Below are positions 9,057 to 52,875 of a stretch of 64,000 nt of DNA, one piece after another. The notes beneath the pieces are model-generated. The model worked only from the letters and a program-made list of their open reading frames with translations, was not told the origin of the DNA and did not search any database. The translations under genes were made by a program, and so were the position numbers. The stretch comes from Geosiphon pyriformis uo1 (lineage: Eukaryota; Fungi; Glomeromycota), in assembly GCA_016748015.1 (NCBI GenBank), contig JAAOMT010000094.1:281917-345916 (forward strand). Direction: 5' to 3'. Every line of letters begins with the position of its first letter. Position 1 is the stretch's first letter.

Positions 9057-9241
9057 TATTACAAGTAATTATTTAGGATCTCAAATCAAATAACAAACCT
9101 GTAACTTGGTATTCAATAGTTGAACTGATTGGTAATATCTGAAGGTATTTTGATCTGAAGATTTTGATTGGAGTTTTTTGTATAATAGACAGAGATTCTC
9201 ATGTTATTTTTATCCATAGCTTCTTAGAATTGCATTTCTGT
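9057..9241 (-). repeat. Element B 3' LTR, U5-end fragment
   Basis: Matches 59864-~60048; cut by element C at CTGT. Confidence 0.9.
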
Positions 9242-18288: not shown

Positions 18289-19151
18289 TGTTACTCATAG
18301 AATATAGGAAATATAGTATTATTAGTCAGTAGATATTAGCCAATCAGATGTAGATGTAATAAATGTGAAATTCTAAGATTTCTTTCAAAGGAATTGCAAG
18401 ATTCCAAGAATTTCAAGATTCCCTGATGAGAAATCGCAGAATTCCAGAATTCCAGGATTCTTCTCATCAGAAATTGCAGGATTCCAGAAATTCCAGAATT
18501 CCTGGTGCAAGGAATAGAGAAATTGAGGAATCTCAATTATGTATATATAGCAGTAGGATTAAAAGCTAAAAAAACAAACTTCTCAGTTTAGATTTAATCT
18601 AAACAACTCTCTAAATCACAATTATCTAATAAATAACTATTTGTTATCTCAAAAACTACGTCTACTATCAACTATTCATGTTGATAGTAATTGATACTTA
18701 ACCACATGGGAACAATAGCTCTTAATCATGGCTATTAATGGGATACTAAATTTGCAAATTGTTTTGGCTTATTGCTTTATATTTTGTTATTTTCTTTATT
18801 TTCTTTGATTTTGTTATTGTACACTAACCAATTGATTAAAAGTGCTGATTACTGATGTCAAAGATTGCCTGGTAAAAGACTCCTGCAAGTGGGTAGGACA
18901 CATACAGAAGATATGGATTACTTACTAGAGGATTGCCAGCCACCAAGCCAAGAAAAGAATTGACAGACTTGTGAATCTGGGAAGCTACAGATAAAACAAC
19001 TATTGAATCTCTGTCCATTATACAAAGGACTCATTTGGAAAACCTTTAGATACCAATCACTTAAAAATATTATCAACAACACAAGTAGCTTTTGAGCACC
19101 AAGTTATGAATTTGTTATTTGACCTGAGACCCCAAATAATCAACTGTAACA
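18289..19151 (+). repeat. Element E 5' LTR (863 bp)
   Basis: TGTTAC...GTAACA; GAATTCCAG-type array ~18367-18535; TATATATAG ~18543; followed by the PBS. Confidence 0.95.
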
Positions 19152-19153
19152 TT

Positions 19154-19171
19154 TGGTGCTCCCTGTGAGGT
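19154..19171 (+). promoter_or_regulatory. PBS of E, TGGTGCTCCCTGTGAGGT
   Basis: 2 nt after the LTR end. Confidence 0.92.
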
Positions 19172-19213
19172 ATAATCCTACAGAGAACCAGCACCAACAA
19201 ACACTATTCAAAA

Positions 19214-22200
19214 GTGGCAGAATCAAAAAATATAAGAGCAAACCATTTAGGATTTGCAAAATCTTTATTTCAATACTATTGTCAATACTTGAGATTAAAC
19301 CACAATCATATATCCACCAAATCAGCCTTTAATTTCTATGTCAACAAAAAGATTTTCTCTTTGTTAGGAACACCAGTGAATACTGAATCAGCAAGGGAAA
19401 CTTTCTACAGAGAATTAATTCAAAACACCAACTTACTAATAAATCATAATTTCACATTCATTATTACTGAGATCAACAAAGAAATTGAACATCACATCCA
19501 ACAAAGATATCCAATTACATATGCTAATAAAGACAAAGGAAAACTACAAACACCAGCAGTAACTCCTAGAAAGATACAACTACCTACTTGGAAGAAGACA
19601 AGAGTTGAATCACCAACCAATCTATTTTATTACTATACACTCAGAAGCACCATCAACATTTTATTAACAAGCATGTCCACATCAAATGCAACTTCAGTAT
19701 TTGGATGATTCTCATTCTAAAGTAAACAAAAGAAAACAGAATTATTAGGACCATATGGCAAATACTTTGAAGGATTTAAATTACAATCACCAATGCCATC
19801 AGGAATTCGATCACCGCCGCCTCAATCAGACTTTGGAACCACTACCCCATGAGAACTATCTGAAGAAGAAGAGGAAAAAGAGTTGGAAGATCAAGAATTT
19901 ACTTACCAGAACCCGATCACTGAAAACTCGGAAGTCAAAACACCAAATTTTCAAACCCAGCAAAATTTAAAGTTAGAAAACCCAGAAATCAAAACTCCGA
20001 ATATTTAACCACCACCAAATCAGAACAATCAGAACCCCAATCTAATTAATCAACCAGACTTACCTCCTGTTATCGTCATTAACCCACCACTAGTTGAACC
20101 GATTAGCCAGCCACCACAACAACCACACCAGCAGATTTAACAGCCACTAGTATCACTTCAACAACCACCGCAACCCAACTTAGATTCAATGGCATACACA
20201 CCAATAGCCAAACTCGAGAAATTCACTGGCAAAGAGGACAATGCTTAAGCCTGGATCAATGATGTCACCAAAGCAATTACCACCAATAACTGGGATGATG
20301 CCAGAACCATACAAGTCATCCCCTATTTTTTTAAAAACATGGCAGACTCTTGGTATCACAGTCTAGCCCAGAAATCTCAAAACTTTAATGCCTTTAAGTT
20401 AGAATTTTTGAGGTATTTTAGTAATAACAACAGCATCAACCGCTTGGCAAGTACTTTCACCACCATCAAACAAGGAGACACAGAAGCAGTCATCACTTAC
20501 TTGAGATGCTTCCATAGAAATCTGCACCAAATTCAGGCAATCCAAGCTGAATACTTTACAGTACCACAGATCTTGAACCAATTTATCTGAGGATTGTGCA
20601 GTAGTATCCTCCAGCAAGTACGTTCAATACATCCAGTTGATCTCCCAACTGCCGTGACTCATGCCAGAGATTTTGAAACTGCTTAGTTAGAAGCTAACCA
20701 TGCCCAAGCTGTGAATTTAGTAATAAATAGATCATCTGACCTGGATTCCAAGCTAAAACAATTTAGTGACAACATCAATTAGAAACTAAAGGGCTACTTA
20801 GCTAACAATCATGCAATTTATCAGCCATCCCAATGACATAATGATTTAAGAAACATGAATCGTTTCCAGAATCAATCACATCCAGGATCATCCACTAATT
20901 AGTCACGACAGCCAGAAATGTGTGTCTGCTACAACTGTGATAAACAAGGGCATATTAGGACAAACTGCCATACTTATAGCAACTCACGATCAGAAAATCA
21001 TTATTGAAACCCTGATTGCCAGTTTTAGACTCCGAATTACCAATCCAATCAAAAGCAATATCAAAATGCTTACCTGCCTATAATGCAGCAACCAATTTAT
21101 TAGTCAACAATATATCAACCACCAATTTATCAGCTGCAGCCATCAACAATTTATTAATTGCAGCCACAAGTTATTTATTAGCCACAGCCTCAAGTAATTT
21201 ATCAACTCCAACAAGTTCAAATGCCGCACCAAAACTCAGTTACAATAACATCAGAAAATCCAAGATCCAGAATTACCCAAAACTGGAGATCAGCAATAGT
21301 TGTTAATCAACTGATCCCCAGTTCATTAGGCCAACAATCAGAATCTCGTCAGCAGGATTTGGGTATCAGTTCCATCCAAAACCCAAATTCCCAGAACTAT
21401 TTAAGTCTCTTGGTTATCCCAGAAGATGTTACCTCTAACAATCCAGAACTCAATCAACAACCAACAATACTTACCAACAACATCCCACCAGTAATCATCA
21501 CCAATGACAAGTCTTTAACAGCCATCTTTCCATTTGAACTCGAGGAAGTTATGTCAGTTCTCTTATTTAGTAAAGCAGCTCTAGAAGAAAAACCCATTAC
21601 TGTTATGTACACTAATGCGAAAGTTGATGGCCATTCCATCAAGTTAATTCTTGACAGTGATTCAGCAGACAGCATCATCACACAACAACTCATGGATCAA
21701 TTAGGTCACTGAGTTGATCAAGCTGTCAGCACTAGAATCATCACTGCCGATGGCACCACAAAAACGCCTATTGGTGAAATTGATGACTTCCCAATTAAAG
21801 TTAATGGTATCATTACTTCTATCAAAGTCTTGGTGATGGAAGTGACCCAATACCAAGCACTAATGGGCAATGATTAGTTGTCTAAAAACAATGCTATCCT
21901 TGATTGGACCACACAGGAGCTCCAGCTCAGCCAAAATAGCCAACACACGCGAGTATTGGCAACATGTGGCCATTTCAAACCTAACAATGTCATGACATCA
22001 GCACTGCTTATTGATCTCGGGAAAGAAAAACTAAAGCCTACTTAGGAGGTGTACCAAGTATCATGGGCCAATGTCAACCACAATGAACTGCCACCAATAC
22101 TTGCCTGGGACAACAATAACAATAGAAAGGAGGAACAAGGAAAAAAACCTACCTGTGGAACCACTATCAACACTTGGACTGACAACAAAGACCACCATGA

Positions 22201-25200
22201 CCTACCACTAATACTATCATGGAATGACAACCCTAAAAGAAAGCAAAAAGAAGAACTTATCTGGAAAACGGACGACCTAACCTAGACCAACAACAATGAA
22301 AAAGAACCAACACCAAGCTGGGAATGGGAAGAAAACAACAAAGGGAAAGGAAAGGCGAAAGAAGAAAAGCCACTGCCAACAAACCCGTATACTTTCTATC
22401 AATACACAACACCACAACAATACATCTATTGCCAACTCAAACTAGTGTGCATCAATTGTGGCAAAAAATTGTTGTTAATGGGCATATGCTGTGATAATGA
22501 TAAAGAATATCAGATGACAACCAAGCTCTATTGCCACGCATGTCTTATTGAATGTTTTGGAAGACCAAAACGAATGGGAAAATGGAATAATACACCATGT
22601 TTAGTCTGTAAAGAAACTCTTCTTGATGAAAGAATATGGAATGACATTCCTGAGAGAGGAGGAACGTGCAACATTTCCTGTCAATACACGATCCTCATTA
22701 GTGACTAGATTGAAAAAGGGACACCAATAGAAGCCATTTGGAGAAGAACTGTACAGTGATTGGACAGTTGTCCACACGATGATGATGAATTATGGCGAAT
22801 GACAATTGCCAACATTAAAGGTGCATCACTAGAAGAAATCAGAACAATTAAAAACAACCCACTAGAACCTATTGAGCTTGACTGGGATGCAGAGCCAGTT
22901 ATAAATTTTCTGGAACCAGAAGAGTTCCATAAACACTACCAAAACTTGGCACCCACTAGAAAAGAGCAAGAACAATGGCTAGCATAGTTGAATACCAGAC
23001 TGTGTTGCCATTGTTTAATTCTCAGTGACTTTGAATATTGTGACAATTGTGACTTCATTTACAATCTACCACCACGTATGATCTACATGATCCCCAAAGA
23101 TAAAGAACCAATCAGCAGCTGTGCATTGGAGTCAGAATTACTGTTCGATCCCAATTCAAACTCCAACAACAATGACGACGAGAATAACAATTCCAGCTCC
23201 ATTCAAAATAGCAATGACAATAACAACAATATCAACACAGATTCAAACTCCAACTCAAACTATGAACAATATATCGTGCTTTCTGATCTTACCAAGGAAC
23301 AAGAATTGAAATGGTTCAGTGATAATAATGAAGGTATTATGCCAGAATGTGCGCATGATACTGATGCCAGATTTGATTTGAGGTATCCAGGAAAAGATGC
23401 CATCAAATTGGAACCACATTTATGCATCTGCATTGATCTGAAAATAGTGCTGGAAATCCCAACAACAACAATGGTTCAACTAACATCCCAGAGTAGTTTA
23501 GCAAAAAAGAGATTAAAATAAGAGGAGGAATAATTGATGCAGAATATGTAGGAAATATCATTGCCATGCTACAAAATAACTCAGAAAAGGCCTATATAAT
23601 AGAGCCAAACAAAAAGATAGCACAGACAATATTCTTACCTTTGGTTAAGATAGCTCAGTTAGTACTAGTGGGAAACAGGGAAGAGTTAGGAATAACAGCA
23701 AAAGGGATACAGGGATTTGAGTCAACAGATAGAATAGATGTACCAGTTAATATGGCAGAGAAAAAAATTGTTGGCCAAGAAGAAATTATCTCAACCAGTC
23801 AAGCTATTTCCATTCCACCATATAGCCAGTACATGCTAGCAATAGAAAGGAAAAAAAAGGAACAAGAACAGATTTTTGAAGCTGAAGCAAATCTTTGTGA
23901 ATCAGGAAAGATTAGACTAATCAATCTCCACATACCAGCCAAAAGCTATAGCTGCATAAAAATTCCTATCTATAACAATACTGGCAATGTCATCAACATA
24001 CCAGAAGGAACTACTATCAGATATTTAACCACAGAAATAGAAGACCAACCACCAAACCCCATTCCAGACTTTCCACAACTTTGTGAATATGTTGACATCA
24101 CATCATAAACAATCTATGAATGAGATGAATGTTATTTGCTCCAATCAGAACAATTAGAACAAATGAACATGGGAAATCTAGACCCACTACAATGTATGCA
24201 GCTCAAAATGTTATTTAACAATTTTAATGACATCTTTGTCAGCGAAAATGAGTTTGGCCGAACTGATATTATCCAGCATCAGATCAAGACTGGAAATGCA
24301 ATGCTAATCAAACAGCAAGCATACAGAGTACCACCAACCAGCCATGAAATCATTTGTCAAGAGATTAACTGAATGCTTGACAATGGATTACTTCAGCCAT
24401 TAATGAGCCTATGGTTGTCACCAGTAGTACTTGTCCATAAGAAGAATGGAAAAATCCGATTTTGTGTGAACTACAGGAAACTCAATGGTGTAACTCATAG
24501 AGACAGCTATCCAATTCCACAGATACAAAAACTATTCGATGCTTTTGGTGGAAACAAATAGTTTTCAATGTTAGACTTAAATAATGGTTACTGACAAGTA
24601 GCCATGGATCTAACTAACAAAGAAAAAACAGCATTCACCACAAGAAAGAAAAATTTTGAATTTGAAGTCATGTCATTTAGCTTGATGAATGCTTCAGCCA
24701 CATTTCAACAGCTAATAGAAATAGTATATACCAGCTTATTATGGAAATCAGTAGTAGTTTATCTGGACAACACCAATGTGTTTTCAAAAACCTTTGATGA
24801 CCATTTATATCATCTCCAACAAGTGTTCAAAAGACTAAGATGAGCAGGATTAAAATTGAATGCAACAAAATGTTTCTTTGGCAAAACAGAACTCAAGTTC
24901 TTGGAGCATATAGTGAGCAAAGATGGCATTAAGATGGATCCAGATAAGATAGAGATAATAAAGAAATTTCCAGTACCAACCAACATGACCAAGTTAAAAT
25001 CATTCTTGGGATTTGCAAGCTACTATTGCCACTTTATCAAAGATTTTTCTAAGATAGCACAGCCATTCAATCAGCTCCAAACCAAGAATGTAAAATATGA
25101 ATGGACTAAAACCCAGCAAAAAGCTTTTGACATCTTAAAAAAAAGTTTATTTAAGCTCTGGTATTGATCTATCCAGATCATAGCAAATCATTCATTATTA

Positions 25201-27007
25201 TCACTGATGCATCAGGCCAAGCATTGGGAGCAGTATTATCTTAGAGAAGACCAGATAGAAAAGAACATCCAGTTACATATGTCAGCCGAGGTTTAATACC
25301 AGCCAAAAAGAACTATGGAACACCAGAATTAGAACATTTAGCAATTTATTGGGCAGTTATGAAATAAAAAAAATACTTAAGCCAAAAGTTTGAGATATAC
25401 ACAGACCACAAAGGATTGACATCACTTCAAAAACAAGAATTTGGAGACAGAAGACAGTCAAGATGGAAAATGACACTTTCGCCATATACTTATACCATAT
25501 ATTATAAAAAAAGAAAAGACAATGGAAATGCCAATGGTTTGTCATGAATGAGACAAATCTAAGAACATTTTGACCCAAAAATATAATAAAACTAGAACAA
25601 TACCAACAAAAAATAGAACAAAAGATGAACACACAAAAATACCAACAACTTTAACATTATATAAATACTTAACAGTTTAAGGAAAAATTATCTCAACTGA
25701 AACAAAAGAGGATCAAACAACAATCAAAATATTTTATCACTCATCAAAATAGACTTTATCGGAAGAACAGAAAAGATTCAGATCAATTAATCAAAGTAAT
25801 TACAGAACTGAAAAAAGAGACAATACTGTTTAACATGCACTCAGATCCAACTGCAGGACATTTTCATAAAGAAGCAACCATAGAAAGAACCAAAAAGAGA
25901 TACTATTGGCCATCAATGTATCCAAATATCATACAATATGTGCAAAATTGTAATACTTGTCAAAGAAAAGAAGGAACAAGACCTAGCAAACCATTAAGAC
26001 CAATTAAAGTGGGACAACCATTTGACTGCATTGGAATCGACTTAGTTGGATCATTGACAATTACCAGCAGAGACAACAGATATATTGCAGTAGCCATGGA
26101 CTATCTTACTAAATGGCCAGAAGCAAAAGCAATTCAAAAAGCGGATGCAGAATTCATTGCTGAATTTGTTCATTAAGAATTAATCTGCTGACATGGATGT
26201 CCAAAAGAATTATTGTTAGATCAAGGAACTCACTTTGTGAACAGAACACTAGTAGAACTAAGTCAAAGATTTGGAGTTAAGAGACTATTGTTATCACCAT
26301 ACCATCCACAAACCAATGGACTAGTTGAAAGATTCAATAGAATACTGTGTGAAGCAGTTGCCAAGATCAGTCAAAAAAACCAAAATGAATGGGATTTGTT
26401 TATACCATCAATACTATTTACTTATCAGACAATGAAGCAAGACACTACACAAACAACACCATTTGAATTAGTATACAGTAGAACAGCAACACTACCAGTT
26501 GAGATAGAAGTCAACACTTATCTAACAGAACCAATAATTGTAAACAATTTTCAGGAAATATTACTAAAAAAAACATCTGATTTGATGAAAACTCTAAAAA
26601 ACAAGCAATGAAGAGCAGCTGATAACATTAAAAAGGCACAAGAGAAACAAAAAAAGAGGCACGATAACCAACTACTAGACAAACCAGTTGAATTCAAGAT
26701 TGGAGACAAAGTACTTTTATATCATACTAAAGCGGAAAAACAATGGAATGGGAAATTTAACCCCAAATGGGACAGACCATTTCACATAGAAGAAATTCTA
26801 GGAAATAGAGCTTACAAATTAAGACTGGACAACAAAATTTTAGCCAAAGCAGCACATGGTAATCAACTGAAACCATATTACCAGATAGCATCAGCATTTA
26901 CCAATAACATTCCACAACTGAAAGTACAAAGAATACTAATCCAACCAGATAAGATTCTACAAGACCTAGAACCAATTATTATCATTAACAATAACACGTC
27001 CAATTGA
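19214..27007 (+). pseudogene. Element E gag-pol, originally a single ORF of roughly 2600 codons
   Basis: ORF pieces at 19214, 20339, 21221, 22049, 22445, 22760 and 22988 share one frame. Contains MAYTPIAKLEKFTG, CYNCDKQGHIRTNC, LILDSDS, dUTPase, YLDN, HSDPTAGH..CNTC and PYHPQTNGLVERFN. Confidence 0.93.
23340..23730 (+). pseudogene. dUTPase domain in E pol
   Basis: AHDTDARFDL, SQSSLAKK, GGIIDAEYVG, KKIAQ and AKGIQGFEST are motifs I-V; 1-nt frameshift near 23515. Confidence 0.92.
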
Positions 27008-27031
27008 TCGACAAAAAGAATATATAAGAAC

Positions 27032-27690
27032 ATGGTTGATGTGACAGAAAAAATCAGAAAAATGGAAATTATGAACAATATTCATTCACTAGCCCAACAA
27101 ATTTTTTAATTAATTCAACACCAGAAAATGAAAATTACAATCAATCAACAAACCATTCATTACAAAAATATGGCAAAGAGACCACAACACAAAGCACAGA
27201 AAAACTTAAAAATGTTGTTGACAAGATCATGACCAAGATAAAATTGGCCATAAAAGAACAACAAATAGTCGGATTACACTAAGAACTTATCAAAGAAACT
27301 TGGACTTGGTAGACACAACAATTTCTGAAAAACTATTGTTATTTTCACTTGGGACAACACATAAATATCCAGAATTTATACACTGACAAAACAAAATGGT
27401 TATTTAACACAATAATACTGAGACAACTGGAACAATTTGTGGGAAAGAACAATCTAAACACACAAGCTTGAGCCATTTACCAGCTATATATGAGATTTCA
27501 AAACCAACCAGAAATCTTACTTAACACAGCAATGGATACAGTTACGAGTAATCAATTAGGAAAAATAATCAATGCCCAATTTAAAGAACTACAAACTAAA
27601 ATAACACAAGTAATACTTGAAAAAAAAGTTCAAGAAATAATTCAAGAAGGGGAATTAAAGGAATTAAATTTTGATGAAACTCAATATTAA
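27032..27690 (+). pseudogene. Element E ORF3 (stops and one frameshift)
   Basis: MKITINQQTIHY, YCYFHLGQ, FVGKNNL...AIYQLYMRF and QLGKIINAQFKEL, between the pol end and the PPT. Confidence 0.78.
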
Positions 27691-27703
27691 AAGGAGAGAA
27701 TAA

Positions 27704-28566
27704 TGTTACTTATAGAATATAAGAAATATAGTATTATTAGTCAATAGATATTAGTCAATTAGATGTAGATGTAGTAAATATGAAATTCCAGGATTTCTCT
27801 TAGAGAAATTGCAGAATTCCAGGAATTTCAGAATTCTCCAACAAAAAATCGCAGAATTCCAGAATTCCAGGATTCCTCTTATCAGGAATCGCAAAATTCC
27901 AGGAATTCCAGGATTCCTGGCACAAAGAATAGAAGAATTGAGAAATCTCAATTATATATATATAGCAGTAGGATTAGAAGCTGAAAAGACAGATCTCTCA
28001 GTTTAGATTTAATCTAAGCAACTCTTCAAATCACAATCATCTAATAAATAACTATTTGTTATCTCAAAAACCATGTCTACTATTAACTATTTATGTTGAT
28101 AGTAATTGATACTTAACCACATGAGAACAATAGCTCTTAATCACGGCTATTGATGGGATACTAAATTTGCAAATCACCTTGGCTTATTGCTTTATATTTC
28201 ATTATTTTCTTTATTTTCTTTGATTTTGTTATTGTGCACTAACCGATTGATTAAAAGCACTGATTACTAACGTCAAAAATTGCCTGGTAAAAAACTCCTG
28301 TGAGTGGATAGGACACATACAGAAAATACGGATTACTTACCAGAGGATTGCCGGCCACCAAGCTGAGAAAAAAATTGACAGACTTGCGAGTTTGGGAAGC
28401 TATAAATAAAACAATTATTGAATCTCTGTTCATTATACAAAGGACTCATTTGGAAAACCTTCAGATACCAACTACTTAAAAATATTATCAACAACACAAG
28501 TAGCTTTTGAGCACCAAGTTACAAGTTTGTTATTTGACCTGAGACCCCAAATAATCAACTATAACA
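27704..28566 (+). repeat. Element E 3' LTR (863 bp)
   Basis: Direct repeat of 18289-19151; preceded by PPT AAAAGGAGAGAATAA. Confidence 0.95.
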
Positions 28567-29300: not shown

Positions 29301-29304
29301 CTGT

Positions 29305-30070
29305 TAATTTTTTTCTCAGCTTAGTGGCTGGCAATTCTCTAGTAAGCAATTCATAATTTTTATGTATTTTACCCACTCACAGGGGTCTTTTACCAGGCAA
29401 TCTTTGATATTAATAACTCAGTACTTAATCCTTAGAAGTTTAGTAAACCATCAACAAGATATAACAAAAATAAAAGAAGATAAATAAAGACAATTAAGCC
29501 AAGGCAATACAAGTTAGTATTCTGTCAATAGCTGTAATTAAGAGCTATTGTTCCTGTATAGTTTAAGTATCAATTCTTATCAACATTTAGAGTTGATAGT
29601 GAGCAGTTAAATTTGAGATGTTGAATAAATATATTTATTTGATATTTGGAATGATATGGTTTCTAATTAAAAAACAATAACTAATAAATTTCTGTCTGAA
29701 GATTCTCCTTTTTTGTCTTTAATGTTATTGCTATATATACATATTTTCTAGTTTTACAGAATTGCTTTGGATTGTCTGTTTTTGCTAGTTATTGCTTTGT
29801 TTTCTTATATTATAACTAATTATCCTATGTTATAACATGTTATCTGATATTATTACACATTATTTTGTGTTATCCTGTATTATAACACGTTATTCTATGT
29901 TATAACATGTTATTCTGTGTTATCCTGCATTATAATATGTTATTCTATATTATAATATATTATCCAATATTATTGTGTATTATTCTGTGTCCCTTCACAT
30001 TTCATCATGTTTTTTTTTCAGGTCATGTTTTTCATTCTTTTTTTGATAAGCTTTCTTTTTTCAAGTAATA
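29305..30070 (-). repeat. Element B 3' LTR, remainder, with 10-bp array ~29820-29990
   Basis: Matches ~60049-60805; PPT adjoins at 30071-30087. Confidence 0.9.
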
Positions 30071-30085
30071 TTATTTCCTCCTTTT

Positions 30086-30890
30086 TTAATATTGAGCTTC
30101 TGCAAAATTAGTTATGTTTGTTAATAGAACTTTGTTCATGTAATGTTTGATGGTTATGTTAATTATGGCTTTTTGTAGATCTTTAAACTGTTAATTGATC
30201 ATTCGTTCTATGTTGTTGACTGTTACTTTTTTCAAAAATTCATTCAATAGTACATTTGAACAATGTCAGAAAGTAACATATAATCAACATGCTACTTTGT
30301 AGTATAGTGTCAGATTGCTTCTTCCTATGAATTCTTCTACTTGTTACATTGCTTCTTTGTTAAAGGTTTTCTGGTTGTAGTTTCTGTATGGGTTTTTTAA
30401 GTCTAGTTGTTTTTCAATTTTGTAAAACCAATATGTTAGAAGAAATCTTTTTTTCCATTCCTGGACATTTTCTGGTGTCTACTCCCCTGTTTTAGGAAGT
30501 TTGGTTTTATGAGCTAAAGATTCTTTAATTTTTTCTAGCTCGAAGGCCAAATATGTTGTATATAATTGTTTTTGTCTTCTATCTAATTTTTCTACTCCTT
30601 TTTCTTTCTCTTCTTCTTTTTCTCCACATTTTACCCAAGAAGTATATTTAATTTCTTTTTGTAAAATTTCTTTTTCAGGCAGAATGTAGGGATGAAAATG
30701 GTTAGTTCTAGTTGAACTTTTATCATCTTTCTCTTCTCTTTATCTCTATATCTTATTTTTTTTTATCAATTATAATCTCTATTTGAAATATAAATTTTTG
30801 AATTTTATTAAATAATTGTTTAGATAATTTTAAAATTTTGTCTAAAAGATCTATGTTTAAAATTTCTATTGTTTTCTTCTTTGTGGTTTC
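30086..30890 (-). pseudogene. Element B ORF3 (F-type), boundaries approximate
   Basis: NIDLLDKILKLSKQLF..IEIIIDKK and YWFYKIEKQLDLKNPY closely match F ORF3. Confidence 0.75.
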
Positions 30891-30934
30891 AAGGCTTATA
30901 TGTATGTAATATCTAAATTTCAGCACATGTGTAA

Positions 30935-32867
30935 CTATTTTTTGATAATTATGATTGGTTCTATATCTCATAGTATATCTTTTGGTCTGATTAATGGAAT
31001 TTGTGCTCCTAGTTATGGTATTACTAATGTTAATCTTTGTGTTGTTTGATAAATTTTTAAATAATTTTATGTGCTGTCTTTTTTAGGATTCTGTTTTCTA
31101 ATTGTAACTTATAAAATCTGTTTTCTAAAATTTTGTGTATGTGAAATGATCTGTCCCATTTTGGATCAAATTTTCTATTCCACTGTTTTTCCACTTTGGT
31201 ACAATGTAACAGTACTTTGTCTCCAATCCTAAATTCAACTGGTTTATCTGGTAGTTGGTTATTGTGTCTTTTTTTTTGTTTTTCTTGTAACTTTTGGATG
31301 TTATCAGCTGCTCTTTACCATTTGTTTTCTAGCATTTCTATTAAGTCATATGTTTTTTTTAACAATGTTTTTTGGAAATTGTCTTCTGTTATTGGTTTTA
31401 CTGGATATGTATTGACCTTTATCTCAACTAATAATGTTGCTGTTTTATTATATACTAATTCAAATAGTGTTGCTTATGTAGTATCTTGCTTCATTGTCTG
31501 ATAAGTAAATAATACTAATGGTATGAATAAATCTCATTTATTCTGGTTTTCTTGGCTGATTTTGGCTATTGCTTTACACAATATTCTATTATATTTTTTG
31601 ACTAATTCATTGGTTTATGGATGATATGGTAATGATAATGGTTTTTTCTTCCAAATCTTTGATTCAGTTCTGTTAATGTTCTATTCATAAAATGAGTTTC
31701 TTGGTCAAATAATAATTCTTTTGAACATCTGTGTTGACAAATCAGATTTTAATGGACAAATTTGGCAATGAATTTTGCATCTGCTCTTTAAATTGCTTTT
31801 GCTTCTGGCCATTTAATGAGATAATCCATGGCTACTGTGATATATCTGTTCTCTCTGCTAGTTATTGTTAATAGTCCGACTAAGTCAATTCCAATATACT
31901 CAAATGGTTGTTCTACTTTGATTAATCTTAATGGCTTGCTGGGTCTTGTTCCTCCTCTTTTCTAATAAGCATCACAATTTTGAATGTATTAGATGATGTC
32001 TAGATACATAGATGGCCAATAGTATCTATTTTTGGTTCTTTCTATGATTGCTTCTTTGTGAAAATATCTTGCTGTTGGATTGGAGTACATGTTGAATAAT
32101 ATTGTTTCTTTCTCTGGTTCTGTGATTACTCTAGTTGGTTGATCTGAATTCTTTCTGTTTTTCTGATAAAGTATATTTTGGTAAGTAATAAAATATTTGA
32201 ACTGTTGTTTGATATAGTTTTGTTTTTTTTGAGATAATTTCTCCTTGAACTATTGAATATTTATAAAATATTGAAGTTGTTAATATTTTTGTGTATTTAT
32301 CTTTTGTTATATTTTTGGGTTGAAGTATTCTTAGATTTGTTTCATTTATAATAAACTGTTGGCATTTCTGTTTTTTTTTTCTTTTTTTGTAGTGTATGGT
32401 ATATTTAAATAGTGAAAGTTCTATTTTTCATTAAGCATAGTGATTATCTCCAAATTTTTACTTCTAAATTGAAGTCAATTCTTTATGATCAGTGTATATG
32501 TCGAATTTTTGGCTTAAGTATTTTTTCTATTTTATAACTGCTCAATAAATAGCTAAGTGTTCTAATGCTAGTGTTCCATAGTTCTTTTCTGCTGGATTTA
32601 AACTTTGGCTGGCATATGCTATTGAATGTTCTCTTTTATTTGATTCTTTCTGCAATAATACTGCTCCCAATACTTGACCTGATGCATTAGTAGTAATAAT
32701 GAATAACTTACTGTGATCTAAGTAAATCAGTACTGGAGCTTTGAATAAGCTTTCTTCTTAATATGTCAAAAGCTTCTTGCTGGTTTTTTGTCCATTTATA
32801 CTTGGTGTTCTTTGCTTAAAGCTGGTATAATGATTGAGCCAGTTTAGCAAAGTCTTTAATAAAGTGG
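30935..32867 (-). pseudogene. Element B pol 3' part (RNase H, integrase)
   Basis: Colinear with E 25030-27000 (TNASGQVLGAVL, SNPTARYFHKEA, GIDLVG). Confidence 0.88.
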
Positions 32868-36311: not shown

Positions 36312-37383
36312 TGTTACCTGAGTAGAAAAACCAATCCAAAGTTATGAAGAAACATGACCAAAACGTGACATAACACAGAATAATGCGCAATAATATTGGA
36401 TAATGCGTTATAACATAGGATAATGTGTTATAATGCAGGATAACACAGAATAGTGCGCAATAATGTAGGATAACGTGTTATAATGCAGAATAACACAGAA
36501 TAACATATAATAACATCAGATAATGTGTTATAACATAGGATAACTAGTGATAAAGTAGAAAAATGAAGCAATAACAGAAACAACAAAGCAATAGCTAGTG
36601 ATAGCGAGACAATTGAAAGCAATCCTGTAAAACCAAAAAAATGTATAAAAGCAAGTAGTTGTAGAAGTGAGAAAAAACAAACAGATAGATACGAATCTCT
36701 AGACCAGAATTAAAATATCTATACTCTTTCATCTTTTATTATCTTCCCTATTTCATCTTCTGAAATAAACCAATTATTAAAAAAATCAGAATCACGAATT
36801 CATGTTCTCGAACTTTGTGGAATTTACATGAATTAACTCTTGTCTTGTATCTCCGTTTTAAAACAGATGCTCTTAGCATAACCACCTTGAACCTATTAAC
36901 AATTTGGACCAATTGCTCTTGATCATGGTAATTGACAATACTAATTTATCTTTTTTTTCTTTTTTTTTCTTTTTTTTTCTTTTTCCGTCTTATTTTTGTG
37001 AAGTAGCAACATAGTAAAATCGACTGTCTAGGAATAGACTTTGTGATAGTCTGGTAAAAGAGAGAAGCTCCTCTTAAGTTTTGGATATTAACATTATCTT
37101 GTTAGCTTACCAGAAGGGCGAAAAGACAATGTCAGACTCTAATGACTGCGTTTATTAGCTTGGAGAAGAAAGCTCACATTTACAAAAAATGTTGCAATTG
37201 ATGAAAGACAAACTCTGTGTCTTATAACCAAAGAACTCAATGGGTAAAATTCACATTCAGGAATAGATCTTTAGAGACTGATAATCAAGACTAAGCCAAA
37301 AGAATTATGCAGAAGATGTATCATCAATAATTGAGAGCCCCAAACGTTATTATTTCCCATACCCACCAAGTTTACCTGTAATA
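36312..37383 (+). repeat. Element F 5' LTR (1072 bp), with 17 x 10-bp array at 36370-36539
   Basis: Direct repeat of 45419-46451; TATAAAAG ~36644; followed by the PBS. Confidence 0.94.
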
Positions 37384-37385
37384 TT

Positions 37386-37403
37386 TGGTGCTCCCTGTGA
37401 GGT
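37386..37403 (+). promoter_or_regulatory. PBS of F, TGGTGCTCCCTGTGAGGT
   Basis: 2 nt after the LTR end; identical to A and E. Confidence 0.92.
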
Positions 37404-37445
37404 TATAAATCCACAAAGACAGAGCACCTCCAAAAATACATAAAA

Positions 37446-40400
37446 GTGGTGACTATTGGAACAATAGGAAAGAACCACTCCTCATATGGAAAAGCACTAT
37501 TTCAATACTTTCAAAAAGACCTAGAAATACCAGCAGAAACCACTTATACAGAAAGTGATTTTTGTAACTATATTAGTGCAAAAATTGACTGCTTGTTAGA
37601 CCACGCAACTGATACAGGAAGACTTGGAGAACAAATCCATCAAAGCTTACTAGGGTATTCAACAACCATGACTACCTGAGCAATTGCTAAAACTCTGTGC
37701 ATATTTGATATAGACATTAAATATTACGTGGCACAATAATTCCCTTAAGTACAACAACCAGTGAAATTCGATCTTGAGGAATATGAAAACAAATCCAACA
37801 ACCCCATAACTGCCCAAGCCAAGTCCACAGTCAACAAGAAACCAAGGGTCCTCTCCCCAATAACTCCATCATACCATCAGACACCCCAAAGTAGAATTGT
37901 ATTCAACCCACCTCTGGAAACCCAGTCAGAAACACCATGAACTCCTGGAAATCCACACCCTTGAAATCAACACAGTTAGACCAAATCACTAGGAGAATAC
38001 AGATCACTGTTTGGAAATCTTACCCCAGTAGCCAGTCAAATAGAAAAAAACCCATCGACTTGGGAACAGCCACCAGCACAAAACCTAGCAGAATTAGCAT
38101 CTCCCCTGATGGAAGAAACAGCTATCTTACAACCTATTGGTTCAAGTGACAAAGAAAAGCAACTAGCATTAGCATCCGGAGAACACTCAAATATGCAGAC
38201 ACCAATCCCTTTAAACATAACCAGTAACACCCCACCCATTAACCGGATCATGACTTACTGGGATATCGCTAAATTGGAAAAATTCTCTGGTGAAGAAGAT
38301 AATGCATATTCTTGGATTGCGGATGCCAAGAAAGCAATTACTGCTAATGGTTAGAACAACAACCACACAATTCAGGCACTGCTGTTCTTTTTGACCAAAA
38401 CCACCAATTCGTAGTACCAGAGCCTGGCAGAGAAGCCTACCTCCTTTACCAAGTTTAAATTCGCATTTCTGCAATACTTCTGTGACCCCAATACATTAAT
38501 TTGATTGCAGAATCAATTCAGCATAATTAAACAAAAAGATCATGAAACAGTAACTACTTATTTTGAATGATTCAATCAAATCCTGCATTAAATATTAGCT
38601 ATCAAAAGGGACTACTACACCACGGCATAAGTTCTTAATCAATTCATTAAAGGATTGTAGAGTAGTATTCTAAGATCCATAAAACCCCACCATTTGACCA
38701 GTTTACAAGATGCTGTCGCTCTTGCTCGTGATTTTGAGTCTGCAAAACAAGAAGCAAATCATACCCAAACTGTTAATTTAGCTATTAATGAAATCTCTGA
38801 CATCGATACAAAGATAACCCAATTGAGTGAGAAACTAATTCAGAAAATTGAGGGATTTTTAGCCAGAACTACAGGAACTTACCAACCACCCCAATGGAGA
38901 GAAAATAACAACAACAGCAGATACCCACAGCAACAGAACCATCAGCAACAGCAACAACCTTGGAGATCCAATCTTCGCAACTGTTACTACTGCCAGAAAC
39001 TTGGACACTTTGCCCGTGACTGCAGAAGGAAGATTATGGACCAAAATCAAGGAAACCCATATCAGCAACCCAGATATCAGCAAAACATGGTACCCCAATA
39101 TTCCATACCTCAGAATCAACCACCCCTATATACACAACAAGTCCCATACACTCAACCACCACCCCAGAATTATTATCAACCACCACCAATGACACAAACA
39201 ATCCCTTACTATCAAACTTCCCCTTACAGCCCATCTAGACCTTGAGCTATACTATAATCAGAGATGGAGGAATTCCAACAACAATCAGGTGCAAACCAAC
39301 AGTGAATTGTCTTGACCAATTCCTTGTGGTCCTGCCCAATTTCAACTAACACCAACTGGATACCCAAATCAAGCTTCCTATTTCAGTCTTATGGAAAACC
39401 AGAGTTTTGATAAATCTACACCTGTGGAAAAGGGGAATATAGAACAAATCTCTCAATCTTCCAAGCAAACAAAAAGCAATATTTCATCAGCCACCATTAT
39501 TGAAGACACCACCCTAGCTGCCATATTTCCTTTTGACATTGATAATTTGAACATCCATAGCCTTTTTAGTGGAGCAGCCATCAATCAGAATAAACCAATA
39601 ATGGCCTTATACACTAATGCCAGAGTCGGAGGAATAGACATTAAATTAATCCTGGATAGCGAATCAGCCAGTAGCATAATCACAAAGCAGCTCATGGACC
39701 AACTAGGTCACTGAGTAGACCATGCTGCTACCACCCAGATTATTACAGTAGATGGAAACACAAAAACCCCAATAAGAGAAATTGACAACTTCCCTTTCGA
39801 GATTAATAGAATCCAAATTCTTACCAAAGTACTCATCATAGAAGCTACTCAATATCAAGCTCTAGTAGGAAATGACTGGTTGTCAAAAGCCAATGCTACT
39901 CTTGACTGGAACACCCAAGAACTTCAACTCATGTTCAACAGACAGCATGCCTGAGTTTCAGCTACGTGTAGACATTTTAAAACCCAATGTACCGAGGAAT
40001 CCTTTATTGAATTCAAAGACACATCAATGCTACCAACCATTGAGACCTATCAAGTTTCATGGGCAGATGATTATCAAACTGAACTACCCTCACCACCAAC
40101 CTGGGAAGAAAAAAGAAAAAGCAGAGCCAAAGAAGAACCCCAATTATCATCACTAGGATACGTAACCTTGGACCAAAGAAACTTATTTTACCAACCCCCA
40201 AGACTAATATGTGTTGATTATGGAAAAAAACTATCCACTATGGGCGCATGTATTAGGAACAACAAAGAATGGCCCACCACTACCAAATACTATTGCAGAC
40301 TTTGTTTACTGGAAAGATTTGGACAACCAAAACGACAAGGCAAGTGGGACAACACGCCGTGCCTTGCATGTGGCAAAATCTTGCCAGATAAAAGACTCTG

Positions 40401-43400
40401 GAATAATATGCCTGGCAGAGGAAGAACATGTGACGAGGCTTGTCAATACACCATATTAATCAACAATTGGATATGAAAGGGAACTCCCATTGAGGATGCT
40501 TGGAAATGAGCACTCAACAGGCTGGACGGTTATCCACACAATGACCATGAAATCTGAAGAATAGCAAGCACCAAGGCTGAAGGTGCCATGCCCGAAGAAA
40601 TACAAGAAATCAAGGACAACTCTTGAATGCCCGAATATAATAGACCCAACTACTCCAAGGATGATTTTTTTAGAATCAATATTAGGAATTGGTCCCAACT
40701 CACGAAGAACAGAAACAAAGGTTGGCTTATTTGAATACCAAACTGTGCGATCACTGTTTGATCCTCTGTCACTTCCAGTACTGCAACAAATGTGATCTCA
40801 TATTCAATCTGTCTCCAAGAATACTGTTTCCAATCACTGAACTACTTGAGCCCAAAGAAGAGATATTGATCACCGAGAACATGTCATTTCAAGATCCAAC
40901 TGAGGATACTAAAACAGAACAGTATCTCGCGTATTCTGACCTATTCAAAGAACTAGAGCTAAAATAGTACAGTGACAATGAGGAAAGAATCTGCCCCAAA
41001 AGAGTACATAACACCGATGTCAGTTTTGATCTATAATACTCCGAACAATCACCCATCATTATAGCCCCACATTTTTTTGTAAAAATAAATCTTAAGATAG
41101 CATTAGAAATTCCTGTTAGTACAATAATACAAGTTGCCTTTCAATCTAGTTTAACCAAAAAAAGAATCAACATAAAAGAAGGAATTATCAATGCCAGTTA
41201 CACGGAAAACATCATCATAATGCTACAGAACAATTTGAACAGACTCTACAAAATAGAATCACAAGAAAAGATTGCCCAAGCTATCTTCCTACCCCTAATC
41301 AAAATACCCCAATTAATCCTGGTAACAACCCAAAAAAAGTTAGGCCTCACTGCCCAAGGAATCAACAGATTTGGATCAAGTGGAAAAGGAAACGTACCAG
41401 TTAATTTCACAGAAGAAGACAGTGACCAGGTAGAATTTATCAACACCGACACTGTCATCTCTATTCCTCCATACTGACAATACATTTTCAAGGTGAATTA
41501 AAAGATCCAAGATCAAGCCCTGTTATTTGAAGCCAGTCCTAAAATCTGTTCCCTAGCTAATATTGCTAATCTATATCTACTGGCCAAAGCCTATAAACAC
41601 TTCAAAATCTCCATCCACAACCTAACAGAAGATGTCATTGAAATCTCCGAAGAGACTCTCATCAGTTCCATATCTGCAGATATTCAGAATCCTGAAAAAC
41701 CCTAGTCCATTCCAGATTTCACACAATTATTCTTATTCTGTGACATTACCTCACAAGTATAGAATTTGCCAAAAGAAAGTTACTTGTTCACACCAGAAGA
41801 AATCAATAAATTGAATTTAGGAAATTTAAGTACCCTGCAACAAATGCAACTCAAAGTTTTTCTGAATCAGTATGCTGATGTCTTTGCTAGCAAAAATGAG
41901 TTCGGACACACTGACATTATGAAGCATCAGATTGATACAGGAGATGTTCGACTGATTAAGCAATAAGCTTACTGCATACTCCCATCTGGCGATAATTTAA
42001 TTATGCAAGAAGTGCAACAGATGCTTGATAATAGCCTAATCAAAGAATTGTTAAGCCCTTAATCCTTACCAGTAGTCTTGGTTACCAAGAAAAATGGAAA
42101 AGTGCAATTCTGCATAGATTATTGAAAACTAAATAGTGTCACACGAGGAGATAGTTATCCCACTCTCTTCATCTAAGAAATTCTGGACAATTTAGGAAAA
42201 AAGAAATGGTTTTTGTCATTAGATTTAGCAAGTGGTTACTGGCAAGTTGAAATGGACTCCAAAGACAAAAAAAAAACAGCATTTACCACTCGAAATGGAA
42301 ACTTCGAGTTTAATGTAATGTTTTTTGGACTTTGTAATGCTCCTGCCACATTTCAATGCCTGATAGATGTAGTATACAAAGAAATTCTTTGGAAATCAGT
42401 AGTAGTCTACCTAGATGACACAAATGTGTTCTCCAAAACATTTAAAGACCATTTGCTCCACCTGCAACAAGTCTTCAAACACCTTTGTAGTGCCGGATTG
42501 AAACTCAATCCTAAGAAGTGCTTCTTTGGAAAAACCAAGTTAAAATTCCTAGAACATGTAATCGGCAAGGATGGAGTTAAACCCGATCCAGATAAAGTAC
42601 AAAAAGTCAAGAATTTTTCAGCCCCAATCAACCTCAGAGAATTACGAGGATTTCTAGGATTTGCAGAATATTATTGTCAATTTGTTAAAGGTTTCTCGAA
42701 CATTGCAAAACCACTTCATCAATTGTTGTCCAAATACGTATCATACTTGTGAAAAGAAGATCAACAGAAAGCATTTGACTATCTCAAGCAGCAATTGATC
42801 ACATCTCCAATTCTGATTTACCCAGATTTCACTAAATGGTTCATTGTCGCTATGGACACCTCAAAAAATGCTCTAGAAGCAGTCTTATCACAGATAGAAC
42901 CAGACAATAGAGAACATCCAGTTGCCTATGCTAGTCGCAGCACTAGCCCAGCAGAAAAGAATTACAGCACAACAGATCTGGAATGTCTCGCCATTTATTG
43001 GGCTGTACAGACTTGGAAACATTATCTCAGTCAACCATTTGACCTATATACCGACCACAAAAGACTTATTTGGTTACTTAACAATCCACAATTAGAAGGA
43101 AAATATGCAAGATGGAGTACTTATCTACAACAATTTCCACTCAAAGTCCATTACAAGGAAGGATCCAAGAACACCAATGCCAACAGTTTGTCGAGGATGC
43201 CACAAATCTAATTCCAGACCCATGGACACACTCACTTATCAACAACTACATCAGTACTTATTGACACTACACTTCAAGAAGATATTATCTTAACAGAAAC
43301 AGAGTACCATATGAAAACAAGCCCAAAATTATTTTATTCAAGACAACCAACTATATTAATAAGAATGCTGAAACCACCCCAACCCACAATGACTAATCAA

Positions 43401-44589
43401 GAACAGTAAAAGAGAAACTATACTATATAGCATGCACTCAGATCTGACTGCAGAACACTTTAACAAAGATGCTACCCTCGAAAGAACACTAAATTTATAC
43501 TATTGGCCAATGATGTACAAAGACATTTTCAAATACATGCTTAATTGTGACACATGTCAGCAAAGAGGAGGAGCAAGATCAACAAAACCATTTCGACCCA
43601 TTCCAGTTGGAAATCCATTTGATAGAATTGGGATTGATTTGGTTGGACCTCTTTCAATGACATCCCAAAGAAATCACTATATTGCTGTAGTCGCAGACTA
43701 TCTTACAAAATGGCCAGAAGCCAGAGCAATCCAAGTGGCTGATGCCAAAACAGTCATCGAATTTGTGCATCAAGACCTAATTTGCTGACATAGATGTCCA
43801 AAAAAATTATTATCTGATCAGGGAACACACTTCATTAATAATACGCTGACTGAACTAAGCCAATGGTTTGGAATAAAGAGATTCTTATCATTATCATACC
43901 ATTCACAAATGAACAGACTGGTAAAATGATTTAACAAAACACTGTGCAAAGCACTAGCAAAAATAAGTCATGAAAACAGACATGAATAAAACTTATTCAT
44001 ACCTTCTGTACTCTTTGCATACCGAACATTGAAACAAAATACAACTCAGTTCACACCATTTGAACTAGTTTATAGAAAAAAAGCTACATTACTGATTGAA
44101 CGAATGATATCATCATATTCAACAAAAACAATTAATGAAGAGAATTTTGAGGCTACTTTACACCAAAGAACGTACCAGTTAATAGAAATGTTAGAAAACA
44201 ATCGAAGAACAGCAGCTGACAATATTAGTCATGCTCAAGAACGACAAAAAGAAAGACATAATAAACACTTATCAGAACAACCAATGGAATTCAAGATTGG
44301 AGACCAAGTACTATTACATCATACAAAAGCTGAGAAACAGTGGAGTGAAAAGTTTGACCCAAAGTAGAATGGTCTATTCCACATACACAAAGCGTTAGGA
44401 AATAGAGCTTACAAATTACGATTGAAAGACAGGATTTTAAAGAAAGTAGCGCATAGAAATCAGTTAAAAATTTATCATGTAAAACAAGAATCATTGTTAT
44501 CAGTACCTCAACTAGGAACACAAATTTCATTAATCAGACCAGAAGATATACCATGAGATCTGGAACCAATCATCATCATCGAAACGTAG
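37446..44589 (+). pseudogene. Element F gag-pol
   Basis: IAKLEKFSGEED, CYYCQKLGHFARDC, LILDSES, Cys module, dUTPase, intact YLDD, RNase H (DTS, ECLAI, YTDH), integrase GIDLVGP. Confidence 0.93.
40991..41385 (+). pseudogene. dUTPase domain in F pol
   Basis: HNTDVSFDL, QSSL, GIINASY, EKIAQ, QGINRFGSSG. Confidence 0.88.
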
Positions 44590-44629
44590 ACAACAGACAG
44601 CAAATTAAATTAGGGAATTCAAATATATA

Positions 44630-45404
44630 TAGCATCTGAAAAGCAGCAAGAAACGATAGAAATTTCAACATAGACCTTTCAGATCAAATTTTAAAATTAT
44701 CTAAACAATTATTTGAAACAATTGAAAAATCGACATCTCAAATAGAAATAACAATTAATAAAAAAGAGATACAGTACAAAGATAAAAACAGGAGAGGGGA
44801 GGATGAGAGTTCAATTAGAACTAAACATTTCCTCCTCTACCCACCACCCAAAAGGCAATGTTGGAGAAAAAATTGCCTTTGGGCAGGAGATGAAAAAAAA
44901 GGAGGCAAAGAACAAGAAAAAGGTTACAAAAGAAGATACTTGGTTCCTGAGCTCGAAAAAATAAAAAAAGCTTTAGCTTGTGGGACCAAACTTCCCGAAA
45001 CAGGGAAGTGGACACCTGACAATGCCCAGGAATGGAAAGAAAAACTTCCTTTAGCTTATTGGTTCTACAAAATTGGAGAACAGCTTGACTTGAAAACACC
45101 ATATGAAAACCTCAACCAGAAAATGTTTAACAAAGAAGCAATACAACAAGTAGAAAAATTCATAGGGAAAAATAACCTGACCCTATATTACAAAGCAGCA
45201 TACTGACTATACACCGCCTTTTAACATTGCCCAAACATACTACTGAATGGATCTATGAAAACCATAATGGTTAACAACATAGGATGAATAACCAATCAAC
45301 AGTTCAAAAACCTACAAAAGGCAATACTTGAGGCAACAATCAAACATTACACAAACAAAGCCATAATAACAGATACATACAGTTTTGCAGGAGCTCAATT
45401 TTAA
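44630..45404 (+). pseudogene. Element F ORF3, start approximate
   Basis: QILKLSKQLF..IEITINKKEIQY, YWFYKIGE, FIGKNNLTLYYKAAY*LYTAF, NIG*ITNQQFKNL. Confidence 0.78.
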
Positions 45405-45418
45405 AAAGAGAGAGATAA

Positions 45419-52871: not shown

Positions 52872-52875
52872 GTAA

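What the first reader, a model, noticed from the sequence alone, without database searches (positions are those of the whole stretch)
29305..32867. Element B is a recombinant: E-type R/U5-gag-pol joined to F-type ORF3 and U3
Seen: B gag, PR, RT and IN are colinear with and close to E, and its U5 end matches E. But its ORF3 matches F (LKLSKQLF, YWFYKI.QLDLK.PY), and its U3 carries F's 10-bp array instead of E's GAATTCCAG array. Both B LTRs have the hybrid form, so the chimera replicated before inserting. Breakpoints are near the pol end (~31000) and near the TATA box. Inference: ORF3 and U3 travel as one cassette, like retroviral env-U3 swaps. That fits ORF3 acting on its cognate U3 array, although physical linkage alone could explain it.
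Basis: partly seen in the sequence, partly recalled or inferred. Interest (0 to 1): 0.72.

Follow-up and report, generated by a model that had tools for sequence, protein, structure and literature searches.

The report
Old recombinant gypsy retrotransposon family
A decayed jumping gene in what is likely a fungal genome has a front part that matches one retrotransposon family and a tail (last gene plus promoter repeats) that matches another, likely because the copying enzyme switched templates long ago, which is a known and fairly ordinary way for such elements to shuffle parts.

Summary
The mosaic is real. Element B (9057-60805, minus strand, interrupted by nested insertions) groups with E in RT and integrase and with F across the integrase tail, ORF3 and U3 (MaxChi 266, shuffles at most 23). 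Corrections: the left crossover lies inside integrase (about 31070-31165), not at the pol end; the right one is at the 5' edge of the TATA-like motif (about 29740). E and F sit inside B and differ from it by many transversions, so the parents were their ancestors. B belongs to a small multi-copy family, and a 550-bp piece between protease and dUTPase matches neither E nor F closely. Host is likely Geosiphon pyriformis (named protein hits). Best mechanism: template switching during reverse transcription of co-packaged RNAs. ORF3 and U3 form the 3' end of the RNA, so linkage alone moves them together; nothing here supports ORF3 binding its own U3 array. ORF3 is a conserved, helical, non-membrane protein of about 230 residues with no family or fold match. 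Such recombinant families are known from yeast, Podospora and grasses. Side finding: integrase is a separate ORF in all seven elements examined.

The parts
59864..60805 (-). B 5' LTR, hybrid: F-type U3 (60805-60495), E-type from the TATA-like motif through U5
60551..60728 (-). 10-bp unit tandem array in the 5' U3 (F type)
59846..59863 (-). Primer-binding site, same type as in E and F
57293..59800 (-). 5' part of decayed gag, E-like; holds an unrelated insertion of about 800 bp (58540-59345)
52872..56451 (-). End of gag, protease, Cys-rich linker, dUTPase (about 155 bp deleted near 54291), RT and start of RNase H; E-like except the linker
   Evidence: (domains called on E, F and A)
54830..55380 (-). 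Linker segment equidistant from E and F; likely a third-lineage tract
   Evidence: B-E transversions 107 of 521 inside, 205 of 2842 outside; E-F unchanged (114 of 521, 549 of 2842)
32331..32867 (-). RNase H C-terminal part ending in a stop codon that all seven elements share
30935..32300 (-). Integrase as a separate decayed ORF; E-type down to about 31140, F-type tail below
31070..31165 (-). Crossover 1 interval, in the integrase C-terminal domain
   Evidence: MaxChi 31128; E-like contig ends at 31138 and depth fall at 31125-31176; B-E blastn match ends 31069
30086..30854 (-). ORF3, F-lineage, B subtype; decayed (stops, frame break near 30728)
30071..30085 (-). Polypurine tract
29301..30070 (-). 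B 3' LTR, U3/R part (split by element C)
29798..29990 (-). 10-bp unit tandem array in the 3' U3 (F type)
29732..29745 (-). Crossover 2 at the 5' edge of the TATA-like motif; the motif itself is E-type
9057..9241 (-). Remainder of the B 3' LTR (U5), with 4-bp target-site duplication at 9053-9056 and 60806-60809
18289..28566 (+). Element E, comparator; nested in the LTR of C, which is nested in B
36312..46451 (+). Element F, comparator; nested in D, which is nested in B

Best explanation
Element B is a decayed Ty3/gypsy-type LTR retrotransposon that is E-like from the TATA-like motif through most of integrase and F-like from the integrase tail through ORF3 and U3, and it likely belongs to a small family founded when reverse transcriptase switched templates between co-packaged RNAs of ancestral E and F lineages. 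Inferred steps: minus-strand synthesis began on the E-lineage RNA, crossed to the F-lineage RNA at the short sequence that E and F share at the TATA-like motif, copied U3, polypurine tract, ORF3 and the integrase tail, and crossed back in the integrase C-terminal domain. The product had two identical hybrid LTRs, kept compatible LTR ends and primer site, and went on to make tens of copies, of which B is one. ORF3 and U3 moved together because they are adjacent at the 3' end of the RNA; no functional coupling is needed. ORF3 is most likely a soluble accessory protein of the element (conserved position and sequence); its target is not shown.
For: Switch of nearest relative, chi 266 vs at most 23. 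Trees: B+E 100/100 in integrase and RT, B+F rejected (p-AU 5e-13 and 4e-8); in ORF3 proteins B-type+F-type 100/99-100/100, B-type+E-type rejected (p-AU 5e-5 and 0.024). Transversions give a usable clock because LTR pairs differ by 527 transitions and 12 transversions in 5,369 sites: B-E integrase 0.027, RT 0.052; B-F U3 0.05, ORF3 0.07-0.11; B-F integrase 0.187 and R/U5 0.374; E-F ORF3 0.37. One event in B's lineage explains these values; making E or F the recombinant needs two. Crossover 1 lies in the 200-column window of highest E-F identity among the 17 pol windows of this segment (0.74); crossover 2 at the only E-F local match found in the U3/TATA half of the LTR (3 of 6 LTR pairs show it, weakly). 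Family: 4 of 224 ORF3-bearing proteins are B-type and form a clade with B (100/99); 3 of the 8 contigs listed bridge crossover 1 at 84-87% identity to B with single-copy-like depth. The pattern matches the scheme in PMC6894440 Fig. 2.
Against: The sequence cannot tell RNA-level switching from a DNA-level conversion tract followed by retrotransposition. The TATA-like motif is E-type, which does not fit the simplest first-strand-transfer model if transcription starts downstream of it; two copy-choice switches are then needed, and the start site is unknown. The six-row nucleotide ORF3 tree did not reject B+E (p-AU 0.133). The 54830-55380 tract shows a more complex history than two parents. No B-type ORF3 gene model carries integrase, and the bridging contigs reach only 60-80 nt into the E-like side, so E-like pol in other B copies is only partly shown. 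The contig run may be the window's own source and is not independent; its depths are not copy numbers.
Confidence: 0.74

Rival explanations
1. The hybrid arose at DNA level: a 1.4-kb tract of an F-lineage copy replaced the matching part of an integrated E-lineage copy (gene conversion or ectopic recombination, or a nested insertion resolved by deletion), and one later round of reverse transcription copied the new U3 into both LTRs.
For: Gives the same mosaic, including an E-type TATA-like motif; the region is densely nested; PMC4079200 names nested insertion plus illegitimate recombination as an alternative route (passage).
Against: E and F lineages are far apart (integrase transversion distance 0.19; U3 and ORF3 barely alignable), which suits short-homology template switching better than homologous recombination (general knowledge, not tested).
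Confidence: 0.14
2. ORF3 is a family-specific trans-acting regulator that binds its own U3 tandem array, so only recombinants that keep ORF3 and U3 together survive.
For: E-type and F/B-type ORF3s go with different arrays. Many ORF3s are basic (pI 8.5-9.7 in 7 of 10 homologues), helical and lack a membrane segment. B and E share 83% over 47 nt at the polypurine tract, so a crossover between ORF3 and U3 had homology to use, yet 4 of 4 gene models spanning both are E/E.
Against: Physical linkage predicts the same pattern; all cross-family exchange is rare here (36 of 36 models with integrase and ORF3 are concordant), so 4 concordant ORF3-U3 pairs say little. Three of 10 homologues are acidic (pI 5.4-6.0). 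One event is one data point.
Confidence: 0.12
3. B is the vertical lineage and E or F is the recombinant (E took a foreign ORF3-U3, or F took B's).
For: Only three lineages are compared; the root inside the F+B ORF3 clade is unresolved; nucleotide AU test inconclusive.
Against: B-F distance is 0.05 in U3 but 0.37 in R/U5 and 0.19 in pol, so B and F share the tail more recently than the rest; B-E ORF3 distance (0.39) is about 14 times the integrase distance, against ratios of 1.5 (C-D) and 1.9 (E-F). Either alternative needs a second swap.
Confidence: 0.07
4. B is an assembly chimera of E-like and F-like repeats.
For: Highly repetitive region; no raw long reads were available.
Against: Both LTRs, 30 kb apart, have the same junction and 0 transversions in 758 sites; 4-bp target-site duplication; distinct contigs bridge crossover 1; B-type ORF3 is its own clade.
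Confidence: 0.01

Closest known systems
Reverse-transcription-related recombinants of LTR retrotransposons (Ty1, ONSEN/COPIA78; review PMC6894440, parts 1-2 of 7 and passages read)
   Same: U3 from one parent, R/U5 and the 5' coding region from the other, plus an internal copy-choice switch; both LTRs hybrid.
   Different: Those cases are within a family; here the parents are distant lineages (pol about 65% identical today), which the review calls rare. The LTR junction here is at the TATA-like motif, possibly upstream of R.
Recombinant centromeric retrotransposon subfamilies of grasses, e.g. CR5-Zm, CR5-Sb-R1 (PMC4079200, passages read)
   Same: Between-subfamily recombinants that then proliferated; parents may be extinct or younger than the recombinant copies.
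   Different: Plant chromoviruses; no third ORF travels with the swapped LTR part in the passages read.
crapaud of Podospora and Ty1/Ty2 LTR hybrids of yeast (PMC10787394, passages read)
   Same: Fungal LTR elements whose subfamilies differ or recombine in U3.
   Different: Ascomycete elements; exchange described is within the LTR, with no accessory ORF.
Additional ORFs between pol and the 3' LTR in plant LTR retrotransposons (PMC7264820, passages read)
   Same: Family-wide extra ORF of unknown function in that position; accessory or regulatory role proposed.
   Different: ORF3 here is sense-oriented but lacks the transmembrane segment of env-like ORFs, has no Pfam match, and follows a separately encoded integrase.

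Membership tests
Ty3/gypsy LTR retrotransposon (Metaviridae) | Direct LTRs with TG..CA ends, target-site duplication, primer-binding site and polypurine tract | tested here: met
   (ends decayed by transitions; 4-bp duplication)
Ty3/gypsy LTR retrotransposon (Metaviridae) | Domain order gag-protease-RT-RNase H-integrase | tested here: met
   Pfam RVT_1, Integrase_H2C2, rve, zf-CCHC, dUTPase on E, F and A; B colinear. Protease and RNase H read from motifs; protease Pfam hit below cut-off.
Ty3/gypsy LTR retrotransposon (Metaviridae) | Integrase translated as part of the pol polyprotein (canonical layout, recalled) | tested here: not met
   Stop after RNase H in 7 of 7 elements; integrase ATG in 5 of 7; different frame in 3 of 7. 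Variant layout.
Ty3/gypsy LTR retrotransposon (Metaviridae) | RT phylogeny against reference clades | not tested
   No reference set fetched.
Reverse-transcription-related interelement recombinant | Significant switch of nearest relative along the element with discordant trees | tested here: met
   one nucleotide AU test inconclusive
Reverse-transcription-related interelement recombinant | Both LTRs carry the same mosaic | tested here: met
Reverse-transcription-related interelement recombinant | LTR junction at the U3/R boundary or within R | tested here: inconclusive
   Junction at the 5' edge of the TATA-like motif; transcription start unknown.
Reverse-transcription-related interelement recombinant | Origin in a heterozygous particle rather than on the chromosome | not testable with these tools
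   Inferred from crossover placement only.
env or env-like third ORF | Signal or transmembrane segment | tested here: not met
   Highest 19-residue hydropathy 0.27-1.29 in 10 homologues; all-helical soluble models.
Element-encoded LTR trans-activator (foamy virus Tas/Bel1-like logic, recalled) | Recognisable DNA-binding fold | tested here: inconclusive
   No fold match above background; models of moderate confidence.
Element-encoded LTR trans-activator (foamy virus Tas/Bel1-like logic, recalled) | Selective binding or activation of the cognate U3 | not testable with these tools
   Needs bench work.
Element-encoded LTR trans-activator (foamy virus Tas/Bel1-like logic, recalled) | ORF3 and U3 types do not reassort genome-wide beyond what linkage predicts | tested here: inconclusive
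   No genome held; 4 of 4 informative gene models concordant, too few.

The most novel reading that the evidence does not exclude
ORF3 is a previously undescribed family of retrotransposon-encoded trans-regulators, each type recognising its own U3 tandem array; the ORF3-U3 module is swapped as a self-contained promoter-plus-activator unit between distant gypsy lineages of Glomeromycotina, and B is a natural swap experiment that amplified.
Probability: 0.12. Interest if true: 0.7.

Novelty: new member of a known kind. Interest (0 to 1): 0.3.

Why it matters
As it stands it is a clean example of a successful recombinant between distant LTR-retrotransposon lineages, likely in a Glomeromycotina fungus whose genome is 41.2% LTR sequence (PMC11952901 passage). 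It shows that integrase tail, ORF3 and U3 of one lineage work with the gag-pol and R/U5 of another, and it warns that RT-only classification misplaces such families. The transition-only decay makes the history unusually easy to read. If ORF3 proved to bind its own U3 array, it would be a new class of element-encoded regulator in fungi, and the E, F and B trio would be the ready-made test set.

Tried and rejected
No genome is held, so genome-wide trees were replaced by gene models and contigs of one run. No RNA holder was listed; expression and start sites are untested. Runs X2 and X3 gave 7 and 0 laid contigs. ORF3: no Pfam family at cut-off for 3 window types; Atlas gave no usable hit for P0004 and for P0177 only an unnamed, mostly Mucoromycota cluster at 0.94 with recognition below the tool's threshold; Foldseek PDB and viral libraries had no match at E 0.001; VIA-align best Z 4.9 and 5.5, background. 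ORF3 of element A showed no BLASTP similarity to the F type. A locus search with the ORF3 alignment had no conserved seed; the single-protein search gave 1 locus. Rejected: E and F as literal parents (nested inside B); env-like ORF3; assembly chimera. Two translations were in the wrong frame and were not used. Literature searches (listings only, except the five papers opened) showed no description of this recombinant family or of this ORF3; the Geosiphon genome paper (recalled) was not read, and it or its supplements may bear on this. No complex prediction was run.

Full report
Setting. The window is a nest of decayed LTR retrotransposons. B spans 9057-60805 on the minus strand with a 4-bp target-site duplication. 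C sits in B's 3' LTR and E sits in C's LTR; D sits in B's RNase H and F sits in D; a solo E-type LTR (56453-57292) sits in B's gag. E and F therefore inserted after B and cannot be its literal parents. All 37, 2 and 108 proteins returned by three ORF3 searches are named Geosiphon pyriformis gene models, as are 8 of 10 further ones looked up, so the host is likely this Glomeromycotina fungus. No genome was held.

Observation. B was compared with E and F piece by piece. Identity B-E / B-F / E-F is 74.8 / 63.5 / 64.7% in RT and 81.0 / 66.2 / 67.4% in the integrase core, but 51.1 / 75.1 / 51.4% in C-terminal ORF3; U3 is 77-80% identical between B and F, R/U5 72-73% between B and E and 53.5% between B and F. 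In 29301-32867, 90 of 415 informative sites side with E inside 31128-29740 and 495 of 684 outside (chi 266; maximum 23 in 100 shuffles). The F-type array motif occurs 13-18 times in each of the 4 B and F U3s and never in the 3 E-type U3s. Both B LTRs switch at the same place.

Trees. B and E are sisters in integrase and RT (100/100), and B+F is rejected (p-AU 4.6e-13 and 3.8e-8). In ORF3 protein trees B-type and F-type group together (100/99 with 32 rows; 100/100 with 22 rows), and B-type+E-type is rejected (p-AU 5.5e-5; 0.024 when two more distant types are included). Against this, the six-row nucleotide ORF3 tree (B+F 94/99) did not reject B+E (p-AU 0.133), with long outgroup branches.

Direction and age. 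LTR pairs differ by 527 transitions and 12 transversions in 5,369 sites, so post-insertion decay is almost free of transversions and transversion distance measures lineage divergence before insertion (inference). B-E: 0.027 in integrase, 0.052 in RT, 0.13 in R/U5, 0.39 in ORF3. B-F: 0.187, 0.198, 0.374, but 0.074-0.11 in ORF3 and 0.05 in U3. ORF3 runs 1.5 times (C-D) to 1.9 times (E-F) faster than integrase. One exchange in B's lineage fits all values; naming E or F the recombinant needs two. B's LTRs show 0 transversions in 758 sites, so B inserted as an already hybrid DNA. Hybrid LTRs alone do not show earlier replication, since the recombinogenic cycle itself makes both LTRs alike (PMC6894440).

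B is a family. Four of 224 ORF3-bearing proteins score best against B and form a clade with it (100/99); one more (P0018) is intermediate. In contigs of run X1, summed depth at 80% likeness is mostly 4,000-12,000 over ORF3 (range 2,545-25,517) and 33,000-399,000 over pol, while listed single contigs have depth 46-99; this suggests tens of B-type copies, with the tool's caveat that depth is no copy number and X1 may be the window's own source. Of the 8 contigs listed (of about 2,450 laid), three run from 31039-31069 to 31186-31209 at 84-87% identity to B, across the crossover. No B-type gene model carries integrase, so E-type pol in other copies is shown only for the 60-80 nt these contigs reach. 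Cross-family exchange is otherwise rare: of 224 proteins, 36 carry both integrase and ORF3 parts and all 36 are concordant (27 F/F, two of them near ties; 7 E-lineage/E; 2 C-D/C-D). These are ab initio models of decayed copies and many hold only the integrase C-terminus.

Crossovers. The first lies at about 31070-31165: MaxChi 31128, E-like contigs leave B at 31138 and depth falls from 79,634 to 7,879 between 31164-31176 and 31125-31137. This is inside the integrase ORF (stop near 30935), in the C-terminal part on which gene models carry PF24626 (SH3-like, name recalled), and in the window of highest E-F identity among the 17 pol windows of this segment (0.74). The second is at the 5' edge of the TATA-like motif, 29735-29745: B is F-like up to a 7-nt block shared by E and F and E-like from there, the motif included; C and D have the F form of the motif. 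This block is also the only weak E-F local match in the U3 half of the LTR (3 of 6 pairs). In addition, 54830-55380, a Cys-rich linker between protease and dUTPase, is as far from E as from F (B-E transversions 107 of 521 inside, 205 of 2,842 outside, Fisher p 3e-18; window maximum 105 against at most 79 in 1,000 shuffles; E-F unchanged, p 0.19): likely a third donor, though faster local evolution in B is not excluded.

Mechanism. Shown: the mosaic, its limits, discordant trees, other B-type copies. Inferred: two RNAs were co-packaged; minus-strand DNA primed on the E-lineage RNA moved to the F-lineage RNA at the TATA block, copied U3, polypurine tract, ORF3 and the integrase tail, and returned in the integrase C-terminus. 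This is close to the scheme of PMC6894440 Fig. 2. If transcription starts downstream of the motif, the first switch was copy-choice inside U3 and not the strong-stop transfer; the start site is unknown. E and F share primer site type and LTR termini, so the hybrid could integrate. A DNA-level conversion tract followed by retrotransposition gives the same sequence and is the main rival.

ORF3. It is about 210-245 residues in intact models, follows integrase and ends at or runs through the polypurine tract. Homologues fall into at least E, F, B, C/D and further types. An unnamed metagenome locus, L001, has the same layout with an intact 230-residue ORF3 about 25% identical to the window types, so the gene is old and kept in place. 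It has no Pfam match at cut-off, no hydrophobic segment, and models as a helical protein (mean pLDDT 59.7 and 68.9) with no fold match above background. Seven of 10 homologues are basic, three acidic. I read it as a soluble accessory protein.

Comparison and verdict. Amplified recombinants between LTR-retrotransposon lineages are described in grasses (PMC4079200, passages), Podospora and yeast (PMC10787394, passages), and reviewed in PMC6894440 (parts 1-2 of 7 and passages), which calls exchange between very distant elements rare. Extra ORFs before the 3' LTR are reviewed in PMC7264820 (passages). Six searches listed nothing on this family. B is a new member of a known kind; interest 0.3. The separate integrase ORF is the more unusual feature of the lineage and was already noted twice in this scan.

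Noticed in passing
window 32331-32333 (B) and the matching sites in A, C, D, E, F; L001 772-774: All seven elements have a stop codon right after RNase H, a spacer of variable length, and integrase beginning at its own ATG (5 of 7; ATA in B and D), in a different frame in 3 of 7. Integrase is a separate ORF. In these copies the start does not overlap the stop.
   Followed up: partly
all LTR pairs in the window: Decay is almost purely transitions (527 vs 12 transversions); C/T differences in all contexts (CpG 0.63, CpC 0.32, CpA 0.24, CpT 0.24, treating C as ancestral). Suggests heavy cytosine deamination beyond CpG; LTR dating is noisy (E, nested in C, is more diverged than C).
   Followed up: partly
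window 54830-55380: Cys-rich linker between protease and dUTPase in all families; in B it is equidistant from E and F.
   Followed up: partly
window 59915-59925 (B), 19092-19103 (E): U5 of B and E holds a stretch complementary to the primer-binding site about 55 nt downstream, which could pair with it; F has a variant.
   Followed up: no
R/U5 of B, E and F LTRs (e.g. window 29337-29395): Two short blocks conserved across the otherwise dissimilar E and F R/U5 are complementary to each other (CTGGTAA ... TTACCAG), suggesting a conserved RNA stem or splice-type signal.
   Followed up: no
window 58540-59345: Insertion of about 800 bp in B gag with no match elsewhere in the window.
   Followed up: no
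window near 54291: B lacks about 155 bp of the dUTPase domain present in E and F.
   Followed up: no
window 533-8285 (element A): Best-preserved element; its third ORF (1190-1942) is open and runs into the LTR but shows no BLASTP similarity to F-type ORF3; U3 has a 12-bp array.
   Followed up: partly
L001 1-3713: Near-intact relative from an unnamed metagenome contig: RT-RNase H, separate integrase, pyrimidine-rich spacer, intact ORF3, LTR with AT-rich repeats; integrase groups weakly with C/D (80/86).
   Followed up: partly
gene model P0018 (not in window): ORF3 with a B-like N-terminal part and F-like remainder; possibly another recombinant or an intermediate subtype.
   Followed up: no
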